Positions 5,497-55,925 of a DNA stretch of 64,000 nucleotides are shown here, piece after piece. Made by a program: the position numbers and the translations under genes. Below the pieces are notes generated by a model that had not been told where the DNA came from, did not search any database, and saw nothing but the letters and a program-made list of their open reading frames with translations. Source of the DNA: Escherichia phage slur09; sequence record NC_028840.1, one strand, 5' to 3'. The stretch's first letter is position 1. Each line of letters opens with the position of its first letter.

Positions 5497-7335
5497 TTAT
5501 TCTAAGTAGGAAAATCCTTCTGCATCTTTTTTAACAGTAATCTTATGAGCTAATGGATGCGTATGCCCATGAGAAACAATGATAGAATTTAGACTTTCTT
5601 CCTCATTTAATAGTTCAACAAGAGTGTCAAGTCCTTTAGTATCAATAAAGCTAATTACTTCATCAAGGAATAGAAGATTAATATTAACTTTACTAATAGA
5701 TGTTAGTAGCATTCGAATAGCTAACAGAGTTGCTAGGTTGATTCGACTTTGCTGACCAGTAGAGCAATTCTCCATACTAGTACGATTTCCATCATTGAAG
5801 ATTACTACTTGTAATTTTGTTTCATCAAGTTCAAATCCAAGTGCGAACTTACCGCCAGTCATAATGGAAAGGTATTTATTGATAAGCTCTTCAAATACTT
5901 TCACACTATGCTCTAGTTTATATCCTACTAGATTCTTTAATGCAGCGATCAGAATATCGAGATCAGCAACAGCCTCTGATACCTCATCCAGTTTGGAAGT
6001 AATCTCAGACATTTCTGCCTCAGCTTTCTCAATCTGTTCTAGTTTCGCTTTATATTTTGCATTGGCTAATTCGACATTTGCATTATGCTCTTTGGCAATT
6101 GCAACCTTAGAACGGCCATCAGCGATTTCCTGTTCTAATTGTCGGATTTGCACCTGTAGGTTTTGCACATTGAGTTCTTCAAAAGAAGCATCACTCATTG
6201 AACTTTTGAACTCGTCTCTAGCTGCTAATGCTTTATCCAAAGCATCCTTTGCTCTAATATATGCAGTGTATTCAAGTTGTTCTTTCTTCAACTGTTCTAG
6301 CTTAGCTTCAAGAGATTGCTTCTCTTTGAACAGAGGATCATATTCTGTTCTAGCCATATCCATTGCTTTTTGAGCAGCCGTTGTATCCAGATGAGTACCG
6401 CAAGTAGGGCATTCAGTATTTGAAGCCTCTTGCTTGAACTTCTGATAACGTTTCTTAACTTCGCCTGCACGTGAGGTTACAATCGTTAGATCACGCGTAA
6501 CACTTGAGATCTCTTCGTTTTGGTCAATGGGCGCGGGCAAATTTTTGAAAGGCTCGAAAGATTGTTCGGCAACTTGTACAGCTTTGTCCAAATTACGCAA
6601 TTTAGTAATATTAGCCTCTTGAGACTTGGCTAATGCCGCCTTAATTTTCGATTCAGTAAGTTCTTGTGCTAATGGCTCTTCATCAAACTCTGGTACTTCT
6701 ACAGGTTCCTGCAAAGTTCCCAGATTATTCTTTCCATTAAGGATTTTCGTAATTACAGCCATTTGGCCCTGCAAATTATTTAAGGTATTTGCTATTTCTT
6801 TACGGTCAGCCTTAATAGTTTCTGACATTTCTTTGTACTGTTCTTGATTGAACAAGTTAACAAGAAAAGCCTTACGTGTTGCATCTGTTGCTTTTAGAAA
6901 GTCTAGATTGGAACCCACCGATTGATAAATCAGTTTGGTGAATGTTTGGAAGTCACCACCCATAATTTCTTCAATCATCTTGTATGTTTGGGTTGCCGTG
7001 TGTCCACTAATATCTTCCCCATTCTTAATAAGAGTTACTTTAGCAGTTGATTTAACTACTTTATGCAGTTCGTACTCATCTTCATCTTTCGAGAAGTAAG
7101 CGTGCATATCGTATTCTTTTTTCGGAGAAGACCAGGAGAACAGAGCATCCTTCTTAATACCACGTGAGTTCTTGTTATAAAACAATTCCTCGATAACCGT
7201 AGCGATGGTGGATTTTCCTAATCCATTGCCACCAATTAGTTGAGTAACTGGATTCTTATCGAAATGAATTACGATGTCCTTACCGTAAGACATAACGTTA
7301 CTAAATTTTAGTGTCTTAATTGTAATCTTTGACAT
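5497..7335 (-). CDS. SbcC/Rad50-like recombination nuclease ATPase subunit (D13-like)
   Basis: Walker A GGNGLGKST, long coiled-coil, CPTCG zinc hook, C-terminal signature/Walker B LLFLDE; start taken at the internal ATG (MSKITIKTL) to avoid overlap with the upstream gene; ORF track extends to 7416. Confidence 0.8.
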   Translation of the reverse strand: MSKITIKTLKFSNVMSYGKDIVIHFDKNPVTQLIGGNGLGKSTIATVIEELFYNKNSRGIKKDALFSWSSPKKEYDMHAYFSKDEDEYELHKVVKSTAKVTLIKNGEDISGHTATQTYKMIEEIMGGDFQTFTKLIYQSVGSNLDFLKATDATRKAFLVNLFNQEQYKEMSETIKADRKEIANTLNNLQGQMAVITKILNGKNNLGTLQEPVEVPEFDEEPLAQELTESKIKAALAKSQEANITKLRNLDKAVQVAEQSFEPFKNLPAPIDQNEEISSVTRDLTIVTSRAGEVKKRYQKFKQEASNTECPTCGTHLDTTAAQKAMDMARTEYDPLFKEKQSLEAKLEQLKKEQLEYTAYIRAKDALDKALAARDEFKSSMSDASFEELNVQNLQVQIRQLEQEIADGRSKVAIAKEHNANVELANAKYKAKLEQIEKAEAEMSEITSKLDEVSEAVADLDILIAALKNLVGYKLEHSVKVFEELINKYLSIMTGGKFALGFELDETKLQVVIFNDGNRTSMENCSTGQQSRINLATLLAIRMLLTSISKVNINLLFLDEVISFIDTKGLDTLVELLNEEESLNSIIVSHGHTHPLAHKITVKKDAEGFSYLE

Positions 7336-52279: not shown

Positions 52280-52281
52280 AT

Positions 52282-52422
52282 TTGCTGAAAGAATTGTTAA
52301 ATCAATTCAGGCACGCGTAGGAACACTGTCTCCGTAATTGAAAGATGAGGCACGGTTTGGAGAGGTATGCTGCTACACGCTACGGTGCTAACTCCGTCTA
52401 GGTGAAAATCCTAGTCAGCAAT
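52282..52422 (+). ncRNA. tRNA-like RNA (about 141 nt) with 7-bp acceptor stem, D-like arm, T-arm and a roughly 59-nt insertion enclosed by an extended anticodon-type stem
   Basis: Perfect acceptor TTGCTGA/TCAGCAA; T-arm CTAGG-TGAAAAT-CCTAG; D-like hairpin GAATT...AATTC; 9-bp stem GCACGCGTAG/CTACGGTGC enclosing 52321-52379; no encoded CCA. Confidence 0.4.
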
Positions 52423-52431
52423 ATAAATTTA

Positions 52432-53262: not shown

Positions 53263-53384
53263 CAAAATTTCAGTGCAGAACACGGAGCTAGCAATTCGGA
53301 AGTGCCGACTCATGATAGGCTGCCTATGTACTTGCGAAGCGGTCGTGTCCAAGACTCGGACTCTTGCACTGAAAACAATCAAAC

Positions 53385-53505
53385 ATTCTAGCGTGGTTGA
53401 TGGGGAAACCAGCTTGGCTAGGGCAGAAGCTCGTTCGATTCGAGTGAAAGAATGGTTCTCGTAAGTCCGCACAAGTGATAACAGGTTCGAGTCCTGTCTA
53501 GAATG
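53385..53505 (+). ncRNA. tRNA-like RNA (about 121 nt) with a roughly 53-nt insertion in the anticodon arm
   Basis: Perfect 7-bp acceptor ATTCTAG/CTAGAAT; D-arm TGGT/ACCA with GG-containing loop; anticodon-type stem CTTG/CAAG enclosing 53418-53470; T-arm ACAGG-TTCGAGT-CCTGT. Confidence 0.4.
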
Positions 53506-53514
53506 ACACTATAA

Positions 53515-53637
53515 AGTTTACTTATTATGTAGGTTCCGATAGATCGGCGGGTCTATTCTGGCATTTAAGAGAGGTCTCGCAAACTTCTTTGTCAGCCGTG
53601 GGGTTGATAGCCTCCAGGTGGCCTACACAATAAGTAA
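53515..53637 (+). repeat. 17-bp inverted repeat (TTTACTTATTATGTAGG / CCTACACAATAAGTAAA, one mismatch) flanking an 89-bp core
   Basis: Arms at 53515-53531 and 53621-53637 are reverse complements with a single mismatch; no ORF inside. Confidence 0.6.
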
Positions 53638-53654: not shown

Positions 53655-53683
53655 TTGCTATTCTGCTTAATTATCTGTATAAT
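53655..53683 (+). promoter_or_regulatory. T5-type promoter
   Basis: TTGCTA-N17-TATAAT. Confidence 0.6.
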
Positions 53684-54004: not shown

Positions 54005-54082
54005 TGCGGGTTAGATCTCTGGTAGAGATCGCTAGTCTCATAAGCTAGAAAGAGGTAGGTTCGATTCCTGCACCCGCTTCCA
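54005..54082 (+). tRNA. tRNA with CAT anticodon (Met/Ile2/initiator candidate), U1-U72 mismatch
   Basis: Acceptor TGCGGGT/ACCCGCT (first pair U-U), D-arm GATC/GATC, anticodon arm CTAGT-CTCATAA-GCTAG, T-arm GTAGG-TTCGATT-CCTGC. Confidence 0.6.
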
Positions 54083-55356: not shown

Positions 55357-55447
55357 GGAAGAGCAAATCGAATTGGCGACGAAAACCGCTTGGAAAGTGG
55401 CTGACTGGTAAAACGGCTTGAGAGTTCAAATCTCTCCTCTTCCGCCA
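55357..55447 (+). tRNA. tRNA-Ser (anticodon GGA), long variable arm
   Basis: Acceptor GGAAGAG/CTCTTCC, G73, anticodon arm CCGC-TTGGAAA-GTGG, long variable arm, T-arm GAGAG-TTCAAAT-CTCTC, encoded CCA. Confidence 0.65.
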
Positions 55448-55459
55448 AACAATTTATAT

Positions 55460-55554
55460 GGTAGGTCAATCCAATGGCTGGCGCTGGACTCCGACTTGAA
55501 ATCGGTTGATCGTAGTGATACGGTGTAAGGGTTCGATCCCCTTACCTACCTCCA
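55460..55554 (+). tRNA. tRNA-Ser (anticodon TGA), long variable arm
   Basis: Acceptor GGTAGGT/ACCTACC, anticodon arm CCGA-CTTGAAA-TCGG, long variable arm, T-arm AAGGG-TTCGATC-CCCTT, encoded CCA. Confidence 0.65.
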
Positions 55555-55559
55555 AGTCT

Positions 55560-55691
55560 TGAAGTATGCCGGAATCGGTAGACGGGGCTGCCTAAAAGGT
55601 TTACAGGGAACATCCACTCCTTGCAACATACCTCATAAAGCGGCTGAGATAAATGGTCTATCTCGTGAAGGTTCAAGTCCTTCTGCTTCTT
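55560..55691 (+). ncRNA. tRNA-like RNA (about 132 nt): type II-like scaffold with a roughly 48-nt insertion in the anticodon arm
   Basis: Acceptor TGAAGTA/TGCTTCT (6 of 7 pairs, U1-U72), D-arm CCG-GAATCGGTAGA-CGG, anticodon-type stem GCTGC/GCGGC enclosing 55592-55639, variable hairpin GAGATA/TATCTC, T-arm GAAGG-TTCAAGT-CCTTC; no CCA. Confidence 0.35.
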
Positions 55692-55802
55692 GATACATCT
55701 ATGGCTCAAAGTGTAACGGTGCTATTTGATGCTCTTAGTAAGACTTTCCCGACATGCGTTCGGGAGTAAGCTGCTAAGGCTAGAGTAGAAGAGTTTCTGA
55801 GA

Positions 55803-55925
55803 GCCGCCACAATTGAAAATTCGTACTCGTCTTGAGCTGCGTGCAATAGGAGATAACTTGATTAGTATTCTAGAACATGCTAATTGAGGATGGTTTCGCT
55901 AACCCTGCGAGTTTTCAATTGTGGC
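55803..55925 (+). repeat. 14-bp perfect inverted repeat (GCCACAATTGAAAA / TTTTCAATTGTGGC, extendable to about 18 bp with one mismatch) flanking a 95-bp core; 3' arm overlaps the 5' end of tRNA-His
   Basis: Arms at 55803-55816 and 55912-55925 are exact reverse complements. Confidence 0.55.

What the first reader, a model, noticed from the sequence alone, without database searches (positions are those of the whole stretch)
53385..53505. Second tRNA-like RNA with a 53-nt insertion in the anticodon arm
Same architecture as the 52282-52422 element but a different sequence: perfect 7-bp acceptor stem (ATTCTAG/CTAGAAT), a canonical D-arm with a GG loop, and a TTCGAGT T-arm. The anticodon-type stem CTTG/CAAG encloses 53 nt that include a second TTCGATT hairpin. 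Two ORF-track ORFs cover this interval but are probably artefacts of the RNA gene.
Basis: seen in the sequence. Interest (0 to 1): 0.75.

Follow-up and report, generated by a model that had tools for sequence, protein, structure and literature searches.

The report
Phage T5 tRNA-like RNA2 gene
This is the gene for RNA2, a small RNA of T5-like phages that has been annotated since the T5 and BF23 records were deposited but never explained; it is built like a tRNA whose anticodon loop is replaced by a conserved 55-base folded domain, so it almost certainly cannot read codons.

Summary
Window 53385-53505(+) folds as a tRNA cloverleaf: a 7-bp acceptor stem, a D arm with a GG loop and a TTCGAGT T arm. 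A 55-nt insert (not 53) replaces the anticodon loop. ARAGORN and Rfam call nothing there.

It is not new. The window is a T5-like phage tRNA region, and the element is the annotated gene rna2 of T5 and BF23 ("tRNA-like stable RNA with unknown functions").

What I add:
- Homologues occur in 481 phage records, including Klebsiella T5-like phages and T4-like Acinetobacter phages, and in uncultured large phage and metagenome contigs, nearly always inside tRNA clusters.
- On 17 diverse sequences 94% of cells pair, and 24 of 32 pairs show changes on both sides. This includes the stem that encloses the insert and the inner T-arm hairpin.
- Two further covarying pairs suggest the insert forms an extended, T-loop-capped arm.
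- Acceptor sequence, discriminator base and encoded CCA are not conserved. The Acinetobacter-phage members appear to lack the acceptor and D stems.

The two neighbouring tRNA-like elements are not the same family.

Best reading: a non-decoding, tRNA-derived stable RNA that is matured like a tRNA and acts as a tRNA mimic. Its target is unknown.

The parts
53385..53508 (+). Whole RNA2 gene. The T5 annotation's equivalent span is 53384-53508 (125 nt). Cloverleaf proper is 53385-53504, discriminator G is 53505, and the tail ACA is not CCA.
   Evidence: 95.9% identical to the annotated rna2 of T5 AY543070 and near-identical to BF23 RNA2. Family model R1 scores 90.7 bits, E 4e-21, but that model includes this sequence.
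53385..53391 (+). Acceptor stem, 5' strand ATTCTAG. It pairs with 53498-53504.
   Evidence: All 7 pairs change on both sides across the family (ATTCTAG/CTAGAAT, TACGGGG/TCCCGTA, GACTTTG/CAAAGTC, TACTGAC/GTCAGTA); 95.6% of cells paired.
53394..53411 (+). D arm: stem TGGT/ACCA, loop TGATGGGGAA carrying the GG.
   Evidence: 4 of 5 stem columns covary (TGGT/ACCA, CGGT/ACCG, TGGC/GCCA, CGAC/GTCG, AGCTC/GAGCT); 98.2% paired.
53412..53416 (+). 5' strand of the anticodon-position stem (G26-like base plus CTTG). It pairs with 53472-53476.
   Evidence: 100% of cells paired and all 5 pairs covary, including the 26:44-like pair (GU, AU, CG, GC, UA).
53417..53471 (+). 55-nt insert that replaces the 7-nt anticodon loop.
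   Evidence: Length. Model R1 aligns ordinary tRNAs with this block deleted. The sequence is highly conserved across T5-like, Klebsiella and Acinetobacter phages and metagenome contigs.
53421..53427 (+). Proposed helix P2, 5' strand GGGC-A-GA. G53421-C53424 pair with G53465-C53468; G53426 and A53427 pair with C53460 and U53459.
   Evidence: In alignment A5, pair 49-94 is CG 19 / UA 7 / other 5, and pair 52-88 is AU 23 / UA 5 / CG 1 / GC 1 / other 1. P2 competes with a 3-bp hairpin that RNAalifold prefers, so this fold is provisional.
53429..53445 (+). Inner T-arm-like hairpin: GCTCG, loop TTCGATT, CGAGT.
   Evidence: The stem covaries (GCTCG/CGAGT, TACGG/CCGTA, GTTGG/CCAAT, CCCG/CGGG, ATGG/CCAT). 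The closing G-C pair is invariant and the loop matches the tRNA T-loop pattern.
53446..53458 (+). Conserved, apparently unpaired strand GAAAGAAUGGUUC, with AAUGG invariant.
   Evidence: These columns are invariant in the 17-sequence alignment. That the GG docks on the inner T loop, as G18 and G19 do in tRNA, is my inference only.
53459..53468 (+). Proposed P2, 3' strand UC-GUAA-GUCC. GUAA is bulged and its UAA is invariant.
   Evidence: invariance.
53472..53476 (+). 3' strand of the anticodon-position stem (CAAG plus a U44-like base).
53481..53497 (+). T arm: ACAGG, loop TTCGAGT, CCTGT.
   Evidence: Three pairs covary (ACAGG/CCTGT, GCAGG/CCTGC, GGAGG/CCTCC, GTAGG/CCTAC, CTGGG/CCCAG) and two G-C pairs are invariant.
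53498..53505 (+). Acceptor stem 3' strand CTAGAAT plus discriminator G.
   Evidence: The 3' tail is GACA here, GCCA in SIY1lw, TCCA in Sugarlandvirus phages, and something else in other members.

Best explanation
The element is the rna2 gene of a T5-like phage, a tRNA-derived, non-decoding small RNA.

Shown:
- It is homologous and syntenic to the annotated RNA2 of T5 and BF23.
- Its outer shell is a tRNA cloverleaf under selection for base pairing.
- The anticodon loop is replaced by a conserved 55-nt domain that contains a second, consensus T-arm hairpin.

Inferred:
- It is co-transcribed with the neighbouring tRNAs and small ORFs from an upstream early promoter.
- It is cut out like a tRNA. 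RNase P would make the 5' end at A53385, and host 3' trimming (perhaps with CCA addition) would make the 3' end. This would explain why it accumulates as a stable RNA of about 121-125 nt.
- The insert stacks on the anticodon-position stem as a long arm (stem, helix P2, inner T hairpin). The tip of this arm would be a second tRNA-elbow-like knob formed by the T loop and the invariant AAUGG.
- With no anticodon loop it cannot decode. It most likely acts in trans as a tRNA mimic or decoy that occupies a conserved tRNA-recognising factor. Candidates are a tRNA-processing or tRNA-modifying enzyme, or a tRNA-targeting defence nuclease.

My separate confidences: identity as RNA2, 0.97; structured non-decoding RNA, 0.9; tRNA-type maturation in T5-like phages, 0.7; decoy or mimic function, 0.25. 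The overall figure of 0.5 reflects the whole chain, including the uncertain function.
For: Identity:
- The 4.2-kb neighbourhood matches 636 T5-like phage records.
- The element aligns to BF23 RNA2 and T5 rna2, in the same position after the T5.067 homologue and before RNAIV and promoter P13a.
- A reciprocal search from the Acinetobacter phage Acj9 copy returns T5 rna2.

Structure:
- 94.4% of cells paired, and 24 of 32 pairs with changes on both sides; no shuffle reached the observed value for four of the five measures, and 1 of 500 did for the count of such pairs. Slid controls give 23-44%.
- The same holds on the 47-sequence model alignment.
- RNAalifold independently recovers the acceptor stem, the anticodon-position stem, the inner T hairpin and the outer T arm.

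tRNA shell: model R1 aligns the window's genuine tRNAs at 14-26 bits by deleting the insert.

Not a decoder: ARAGORN and Rfam do not call it.

Function not tied to charging:
- Acceptor sequence, discriminator base and encoded CCA all vary.
- By my hand alignment the Acinetobacter-phage members lack the acceptor and D stems, yet keep the insert, the T arm and a GG-bearing leader.

Context: almost always inside tRNA clusters, including a 47-tRNA array.

Background for the decoy idea: phage tRNA clusters have been proposed to counter host tRNA-targeting nucleases (PMC10264068).
Against: - "Stable RNA" rests on the depositors' annotation.
- The single-sequence folding energy is not better than shuffles (z = -0.18).
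- The inner fold is not settled. P2 rests on two covarying pairs and has a clade of U.U exceptions, and RNAalifold prefers a different 3-bp hairpin.
- The members without an acceptor stem cannot be ordinary RNase P substrates, so tRNA-type maturation is not universal in the family.
- No partner protein or RNA was identified. Neighbouring genes in divergent loci are unrelated small ORFs.
- The conserved unpaired bases could serve tertiary folding only.
- My alignment was made with the structure in mind, which inflates pairing percentages somewhat.
Confidence: 0.5

Rival explanations
1. It is a processing or punctuation element. The tRNA-like shell exists only so that RNase P and 3' nucleases cut the polycistronic early transcript at this point. 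The released RNA has no function in trans.
For: It lies between ORFs, tRNAs and other small RNAs in one transcription unit, with the next promoter-like site only at 53655-53683. The Acinetobacter-phage versions sit exactly between two tRNA or tRNA-like genes.
Against: A mere cleavage signal needs only an acceptor stem and a T arm. Here the most conserved part is the 55-nt insert, which is kept across T5-like, Klebsiella and Acinetobacter phages and environmental contigs, with covarying stems and invariant unpaired bases. The acceptor stem is the dispensable part.
Confidence: 0.15
2. It is a real tRNA gene interrupted by an intron. Removing the insert yields a decoding tRNA.
For: With a relaxed threshold and introns allowed, ARAGORN draws a tRNA-Arg(CCG) at 53385-53505 with a 48-nt intron.
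Against: - Nothing is found at default thresholds, even with introns allowed.
- The proposed intron sits at the non-canonical 33/34 position and leaves a loop (G U CCG C A) with C where tRNAs normally have a purine at position 37.
- The residual loop is not conserved: TCCGCA in some members, TCCATA in others.
- No group I intron or other ribozyme hit at E <= 10.
- At 55 nt it is far below group I intron size. That size limit, and the statement that bacteria have no protein-only tRNA splicing pathway, are from my own knowledge.
- The insert is more conserved than the exons.
Confidence: 0.04
3. It is a decayed tRNA pseudogene, or an accidental fusion of two tRNA fragments left by recombination in a region rich in homing endonuclease genes.
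For: The region is mosaic, with tRNAs, ORFs and endonuclease genes coming and going between relatives. The insert contains a second T arm, as a fusion might.
Against: - 481 phage records carry it.
- Compensatory changes are present in every helix.
- Sequence-level homology links siphoviruses of enterobacteria to myoviruses of Acinetobacter.
The origin may well have been a tRNA with an insertion, but the present element is maintained by selection.
Confidence: 0.04
4. The interval is protein-coding: one of the two overlapping GTG-start ORFs is real.
For: ORFs of 72 aa (-) and 63 aa (+) overlap the element. Several GenBank records annotate a hypothetical protein over it.
Against: No frame is free of stops across the homologues. 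Substitutions are paired in RNA stems rather than patterned by codon position. Both ORFs start with GTG and extend into the equally structured upstream region.
Confidence: 0.02
5. It is an RNA that binds other tRNAs. The insert would form an elbow-docking platform like the interdigitated double T-loop of T-box stem I, RNase P and the L1 stalk, and the invariant UGG might pair with NCCA ends.
For: The insert has a consensus T loop (UUCGA) at its tip. In the window a second pentanucleotide, UGAAA, fits the UGNNA pattern and lies directly 3' of that hairpin (motif definition in PMC3664808 and PMC4919913). UGG is invariant.
Against: The UGAAA pentamer is not conserved in the Sugarlandvirus and SIY1lw clade, where it reads UAAAU, UAGAU, UAGGC or UAGGU. 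The base after UGG does not covary with the family's own discriminator base. No 3D evidence.
Confidence: 0.08

Closest known systems
RNA2 (gene rna2) of bacteriophages T5 and BF23, as annotated in AY543070, NC_005859, AY692264 and AJ604530
   Same: Same gene. It is 95.9% identical to T5 rna2 and differs from BF23 RNA2 at 3 positions within the cloverleaf, two of which form a compensatory A-U to G-C change in the T stem. Same neighbours and same orientation.
   Different: Nothing essential. In BF23 and some relatives a tRNA-Gly gene follows RNA2 directly; that gene is missing in the window and in T5.
Canonical bacterial or phage tRNA
   Same: 7-bp acceptor stem, D arm with GG, a 26:44-type pair, a 4-nt variable loop, and a T arm with an invariant closing G-C pair and a TTCGA loop. 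The family model aligns real tRNAs over these parts.
   Different: No anticodon loop, because 55 nt take its place. C8 and U14 replace the usual U8 and A14 in the T5-like copies (my reading). No encoded CCA in the window, although every ordinary tRNA I checked in this cluster encodes one. Not called by ARAGORN or by Rfam RF00005.
YrlA, the bacterial Y RNAs with a tRNA-like domain (PMC4201824)
   Same: A non-coding RNA that mimics tRNA D and T arms. Some YrlA RNAs are cut by RNase P and receive CCA. YrlA also occurs in phages.
   Different: In YrlA the 5' and 3' ends form the Ro60-binding stem, which emerges where the anticodon stem would be, and the acceptor-like stem is closed by a loop. That is the reverse topology. 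No Rfam hit here.
Phage T4 species 1 and species 2 RNAs (rnaC, rnaD)
   Same: Small stable RNAs of unknown function encoded at the end of a phage tRNA cluster, 139 and 119 nt long. rnaC ends in a consensus T arm.
   Different: No detectable homology. The family model finds nothing in the T4 region at E <= 1e-6. Only short motif resemblances were seen by eye.
tRNA-like domain of tmRNA
   Same: An acceptor stem and T arm joined to a large non-tRNA insert in place of the anticodon arm.
   Different: The element is about 120 nt rather than about 360 (tmRNA size from my own knowledge). It has no tag reading frame. It lacks the G3.U70 alanine identity pair (sequence; the determinant is from my own knowledge). 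ARAGORN's tmRNA mode and Rfam both find nothing.

Membership tests
T5/BF23 RNA2 (rna2) | Sequence homology to the annotated rna2 feature | tested here: met
   122 of 122 nt aligned at 95.9% to AY543070 rna2. BF23 RNA2 differs at 3 positions within the cloverleaf.
T5/BF23 RNA2 (rna2) | Same genomic position: after the T5.067 / ORF trn 2.10 homologue and before RNAIV and promoter P13a | tested here: met
   Annotated tables, alignment, and a promoter-like site at 53655-53683.
T5/BF23 RNA2 (rna2) | Accumulates as a discrete stable RNA in infected cells | not testable with these tools
   Rests only on the depositors' note "tRNA-like stable RNA".
Canonical tRNA | Cloverleaf with a 7-bp acceptor stem, a D arm and a T arm | tested here: met
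Canonical tRNA | 7-nt anticodon loop on a 5-bp stem | tested here: not met
   The stem encloses 55 nt. No tRNA is called by ARAGORN or by Rfam RF00005 at E <= 10.
Canonical tRNA | 3' CCA end and aminoacylation | tested here: inconclusive
   The encoded tail is GACA in the window, GCCA or TCCA in some relatives and unrelated in others. Post-transcriptional CCA addition and charging cannot be tested here.
Intron-containing tRNA | An intron at a canonical anticodon-loop position whose removal leaves a conserved, functional loop | tested here: not met
   ARAGORN with introns finds nothing at default thresholds. The relaxed call places the intron at 33/34 and leaves a non-standard loop, and the residual loop differs between family members.
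Intron-containing tRNA | A recognisable self-splicing intron (group I) | tested here: not met
   No Rfam intron or ribozyme hit at E <= 10.
YrlA / bacterial Y RNA | 5' and 3' ends form the Ro60-binding stem carrying the GNCGAAN0-1G motif | tested here: not met
   Here the ends form the acceptor stem. No Rfam match. Motif as defined in PMC4201824.
YrlA / bacterial Y RNA | Encoded next to a Ro60 (rsr) gene | not tested
   I did not search the window for rsr. The immediate neighbours are tRNAs and small ORFs.
T4 rnaC / rnaD | Sequence and structure homology to T4 species 1 or 2 RNA | tested here: not met
   Model R1 finds no match in the T4 locus L008 at E <= 1e-6.
tmRNA | tRNA-like domain plus a tag reading frame | tested here: not met
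   ARAGORN -m finds nothing. No Rfam hit.
Interdigitated double T-loop (tRNA-elbow docking module) | Two conserved pentanucleotide T-loops (AGNNA / UGNNA type) placed head to tail | tested here: inconclusive
   One consensus T loop is invariant. The second candidate (UGAAA) is present in the window but is not conserved in the Sugarlandvirus and SIY1lw clade. Motif definition.

The most novel reading that the evidence does not exclude
RNA2 and its relatives would be a widespread, uncatalogued class of "two-elbow" tRNA mimics. A tRNA body, or in Acinetobacter phages just a T arm, would be joined by a long irregular helix to a second T-loop/GG knob. Phages and mobile tRNA arrays would carry it to jam or redirect a conserved factor that reads tRNA shape. 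Candidates are an anti-phage tRNA nuclease, RNase P or RNase Z, or another tRNA bound through elbow docking. This would finally give a function to one of the small RNAs of unknown function encoded in phage tRNA clusters.
Probability: 0.2. Interest if true: 0.75.

Novelty: already known. Interest (0 to 1): 0.38.

Why it matters
As a finding in this window it is ordinary: it is the annotated rna2 gene of T5-like phages. Most of the several hundred deposited T5-like genomes leave it unannotated or cover it with a hypothetical protein.

Its wider value is that RNA2 has no known function and is absent from Rfam, yet:
- it shows very strong covariation;
- it is shared by unrelated phage lineages (Demerecviridae, T4-like Acinetobacter phages, uncultured contigs of 164-247 kb) and by a 47-tRNA array;
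- its conserved core is the non-tRNA insert, not the parts needed for charging.

That makes it a clean, testable candidate for a tRNA-mimic function in the contest between phages and tRNA-targeting defences. It also provides a ready seed alignment for a new RNA family, which would correct mis-annotations.

Tried and rejected
1. Automated tRNA and tmRNA finders, including ARAGORN intron and tmRNA modes. Nothing at default thresholds.
2. Rfam at gathering thresholds and at E <= 10. No family matched, including tRNA, tRNA-Sec, tmRNA, Y RNA, ribozymes and introns.
3. A shared family with 52282-52422 and 55560-55691. Rejected by the covariance model. The element at 55560-55691 is BF23 RNA1.
4. Kinship with T4 rnaC and rnaD. 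No model hit.
5. My first inner fold, a hairpin ATGG../..CCRY presenting the 7-nt loop CUCGUAA as a tRNA-Met/Thr-like anticodon-loop mimic. Dropped because the stem shows no covariation and has an A.C mismatch in most sequences (13 of 17 in the hand alignment; 27 of 31 distinct sequences). Loop positions 2 and 3 instead pair with the G-rich strand.
6. The double T-loop elbow-docking motif. The second T-loop is not conserved.
7. A host homologue or long complementarity in E. coli genomes. None found, though short complementarities are not detectable that way.
8. Conserved neighbouring protein genes in divergent loci. None seen.
9. Literature searches for T5 RNA2 function. Nothing in the open-access library. 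The original T5 stable-RNA papers I recall are not held there.
10. A first motif scan with 15 specified bases. It mostly returned chance hits, which I filtered by flanking T-arm features. Two hits of the stricter pattern (L102, L110) were also chance.

Full report
**What is there.**
- Acceptor stem ATTCTAG/CTAGAAT.
- D arm TGGT-TGATGGGGAA-ACCA.
- T arm ACAGG-TTCGAGT-CCTGT.
- A stem CTTG/CAAG, extended by a G.U pair, that encloses a long insert containing a second hairpin, GCTCG-TTCGATT-CGAGT.

The insert is 55 nt (53417-53471), not 53. The minimum-free-energy fold of the single sequence reproduces the outer cloverleaf, but its energy is no better than shuffled sequence (z = -0.18). Folding energy is therefore not the argument that it is real.

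ARAGORN finds 21 tRNAs in the window and none here. Rerun locally with introns allowed or in tmRNA mode, it still finds nothing. Only with a relaxed threshold does it draw a tRNA-Arg(CCG) with a 48-nt intron at the non-canonical 33/34 position. Rfam has no match at gathering thresholds or at E <= 10.

**Where the window comes from and what the element is called.** The surrounding 4.2 kb matches 636 phage records, nearly all T5-like phages of Salmonella, Escherichia and Klebsiella.

The curated BF23 tRNA-region record annotates a misc_RNA "RNA2, tRNA-like RNA with unknown functions" at the homologous place. The alignment shows only three differences within the cloverleaf. Two of them are a compensatory A-U to G-C change in the T stem.

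T5 itself annotates "rna2: RNA2, tRNA-like stable RNA with unknown functions". It lies between the T5.067 gene and RNAIV, upstream of promoter P13a. The window has the same order, including a promoter-like site at 53655-53683. The RefSeq T5 record and a second T5 genome record carry the same gene name. The element is therefore already known as a gene, although its function is not.

Most other records leave it unannotated or lay a hypothetical protein over it.

**Is it a maintained RNA structure?** A sensitive search with the 122-nt element finds it in 481 phage records. Identity falls to about 76% in Klebsiella Sugarlandvirus phages, and there are partial hits in Acinetobacter phages.

A motif scan of viral, metagenome and genome collections added divergent members:
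- a 164-kb viral contig (L086);
- a 159.8-kb viral contig (L017);
- metagenome contigs L097, L100/L103 (the latter 247 kb), L107 and L109.

Two scan hits (L102, L110) were chance matches.

I aligned 17 diverse sequences by hand on the proposed structure and counted pairs.
- 94.4% of cells form standard pairs, against 66.5 +/- 1.5% after shuffling and 23-44% when partners are slid.
- 24 of 32 pairs show changes on both sides.
- The covariation score is 0.634, against 0.183 after shuffling.

Every outer helix is supported, and so is the inner T-type hairpin. The stem that encloses the insert is paired in 100% of cells, and all five of its pairs covary. These include the 26:44-like pair (G.U, A-U, C-G, G-C, U-A).

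Because I made the alignment with the structure in mind, the percentages lean towards it. However, RNAalifold on a model-made alignment independently recovers the acceptor stem, the enclosing stem, the inner hairpin and the outer T arm.

**Relation to tRNA and to the neighbouring elements.** A covariance model built from the 17 sequences scores the element at 90.7 bits. This is circular as a test of the element, because it is in the model. It scores the window's ordinary tRNAs at 14-26 bits by deleting its 59-position insert in favour of their 7-nt anticodon loops. That shows directly that the shell is a tRNA shell.

The same search gives 7.9 bits (E = 3.9) for 52281-52426 and 11.6 bits, T arm only, for 55638-55695. 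Those two elements are not members of this family. The element at 55560-55691 is the homologue of BF23 RNA1.

Across 50 sources the model finds 47 members and nothing in the T4 rnaC/rnaD region.

**The insert.** My first guess was a three-way junction. In it, a small hairpin presented the 7-nt loop CUCGUAA, which resembles the CUCAUAA loop of the phage's own initiator tRNA at 54005-54082.

That hairpin is not supported. Its two G-C pairs are invariant, and the next pair is an A.C mismatch in most sequences (13 of 17 in the hand alignment; 27 of 31 distinct sequences in the model-made alignment).

Instead, loop position 2 covaries with a base of the G-rich 5' strand (AU 23, UA 5, CG 1, GC 1, one exception), next to an invariant G-C pair. 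The base after GGG covaries with the base after UAA (CG 19, UA 7). Five U.U exceptions are confined to the Sugarlandvirus/SIY1lw clade.

Taking these as one interrupted helix (P2) raises overall pairing from 89.0% to 95.7%. In the window, G53421-C53424 pair with G53465-C53468, and G53426 and A53427 pair with C53460 and U53459.

On this model the insert is a continuation of the anticodon-position stem:
- a stem of 5 bp;
- a small internal loop;
- P2, with a bulge that contains the invariant UAA;
- the consensus T-arm hairpin at the tip;
- an invariant AAUGG in a 13-nt unpaired strand beside it.

I infer, without evidence, that this GG caps the inner T loop as G18 and G19 cap the T loop of a tRNA, giving the molecule a second elbow. 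RNAalifold prefers the small hairpin, so the inner fold remains provisional.

**What is and is not conserved.** The acceptor-stem sequence, the discriminator base (G, U, A) and the encoded 3' tail (GACA here; GCCA, TCCA, ACTA, AACA and others elsewhere) all vary. The ordinary tRNAs I checked in this window all encode CCA.

By hand alignment, the Acinetobacter-phage and L017 members lack the acceptor and D stems. They lie directly between the end of one tRNA and the start of the next tRNA or tRNA-like gene. They keep a leader with a D-loop-like GG motif, the enclosing stem, the whole insert and the T arm.

A reciprocal search from the Acj9 copy hits T5 rna2 at E = 4e-6 and finds 14 Acinetobacter phage records. 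The conserved core is therefore the insert plus the T arm, not the parts needed for charging with an amino acid.

Members are nearly always inside tRNA clusters. L109 lies inside 47 tRNA genes within 8.3 kb of a 1.46-Mb contig. L086 is an exception, with no tRNA within 10 kb.

**How it most likely works.** Two things are shown: it is a selected, structured RNA with a tRNA shell and no anticodon loop, and it is encoded in phage tRNA operons.

The rest is inferred:
- In T5-like phages RNase P and host 3' processing release it like a tRNA. This would explain the depositors' "stable RNA".
- It cannot decode.
- Its conservation across hosts as far apart as Enterobacteria and Acinetobacter points to a target that is itself conserved and that reads tRNA shape.

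I commit to "tRNA mimic or decoy acting in trans" as the most likely role, at about 0.25. Phage tRNA clusters have been proposed to counter anticodon nucleases such as VapC, PrrC and colicins (PMC10264068), which gives a plausible setting. I found no partner and no conserved neighbouring gene.

Rivals:
- A pure processing signal. This is weakened because the insert, not the acceptor stem, is the conserved part.
- An intron-containing tRNA: no support at default thresholds, no conserved residual loop, no ribozyme signature.
- A decayed tRNA. This is contradicted by the covariation and breadth.
- A protein-coding ORF: no conserved frame.
- A tRNA-binding RNA with an interdigitated double T-loop (motif from PMC3664808 and PMC4919913). 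A second T-loop-like pentamer, UGAAA, is present here but is not conserved in one clade, so this is at best unproven.

**Comparison with known systems and verdict.** It is RNA2 of T5 and BF23.
- It works like a tRNA only as a substrate for tRNA-processing enzymes. It fails the defining anticodon-loop test for tRNA membership.
- It resembles YrlA Y RNAs in being a tRNA-mimicking non-coding RNA, but it has the opposite topology and no Ro-binding stem.
- It shares its setting, but no detectable homology, with T4 species 1 and 2 RNAs.

Novelty is "already known". The new information is the breadth of the family, the covariation-backed structure, the dispensability of the acceptor stem and the absence from Rfam. 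I score interest at 0.38: ordinary as a window finding, but a good, cheaply testable orphan RNA.

Noticed in passing
window 53266-53382 (+): A stretch of about 115 nt immediately upstream of RNA2 is closed by a 10-bp stem (UUUCAGUGCA / UGCACUGAAA). MFE is -34.5 kcal/mol, z = -1.73. It is nearly identical in BF23 and carries no annotated feature in the T5 or BF23 records. It is absent in relatives such as L011, L014 and SIY1lw, where other sequence (in several cases ending like a tRNA) directly precedes RNA2. It may be another small RNA or a processing site.
   Followed up: partly
window ~53525-53630 (+), then 53655-53683: Homologue of T5/BF23 RNAIV ("stable RNA with unknown functions"), followed by the P13a promoter-like site TTGCTA-17-TATAAT. 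BF23 has a tRNA-Gly(GCC) gene and about 150 further bases between RNA2 and RNAIV that the window and T5 lack.
   Followed up: partly
window 55560-55691 and 55700-55918 (+): 55560-55691 is the homologue of BF23 RNA1 ("tRNA-like RNA with unknown functions"). The next ~220 nt correspond to RNAI and RNAIII ("stable RNA with unknown functions"). RNA1 is not in the RNA2 family; only its T arm scores, at 11.6 bits.
   Followed up: partly
The RNA2 family model gives it 7.9 bits, E = 3.9, so it is a different thing. Its T-loop-position sequence TGAAAAT is not the tRNA consensus.
   Followed up: partly
window 55357-55443 and 55459-55555 (+): Two long tRNA-like genes are missed by ARAGORN and by the Rfam tRNA model. 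They get only sub-threshold tRNA-Sec hits of 19.7 and 37.6 bits. BF23 annotates tRNA-Ser2 and tRNA-Ser1 in the corresponding region. By eye, 55459-55555 carries a TGA anticodon loop and ends in CCA.
   Followed up: no
window 44817-44888 and 49097-49171 (+): The Rfam tRNA model reaches its gathering score here (35.5 and 40.3 bits), but ARAGORN reports no gene.
   Followed up: no
L109 1-8283 (metagenome contig Ga0308158_10000004, 1.46 Mb): 47 tRNA genes lie within 8.3 kb, with an RNA2-family element at 6022-6142 between tRNA-Gly and tRNA-Pro. A contig this size suggests a cellular genome or a very large mobile element carrying a tRNA array.
   Followed up: no
L006 1451-1681 (Acinetobacter phage Acj9, CDS Acj9p148): The annotated hypothetical protein overlaps the RNA2-family element (about 1462-1572) and a following tRNA-like sequence that ends in GCCA and that ARAGORN does not call. 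This is probably a mis-annotation. The same arrangement occurs in phage AB2I3.
   Followed up: partly
L008 2409-2672 (-) (T4 rnaC, rnaD): T4 rnaD contains GAUGGUUCCCUGAGUAAGGAA, which by eye faintly recalls the RNA2 motif GAAUGGUUCUCGUAAGUCC. The covariance model sees no relationship.
   Followed up: partly
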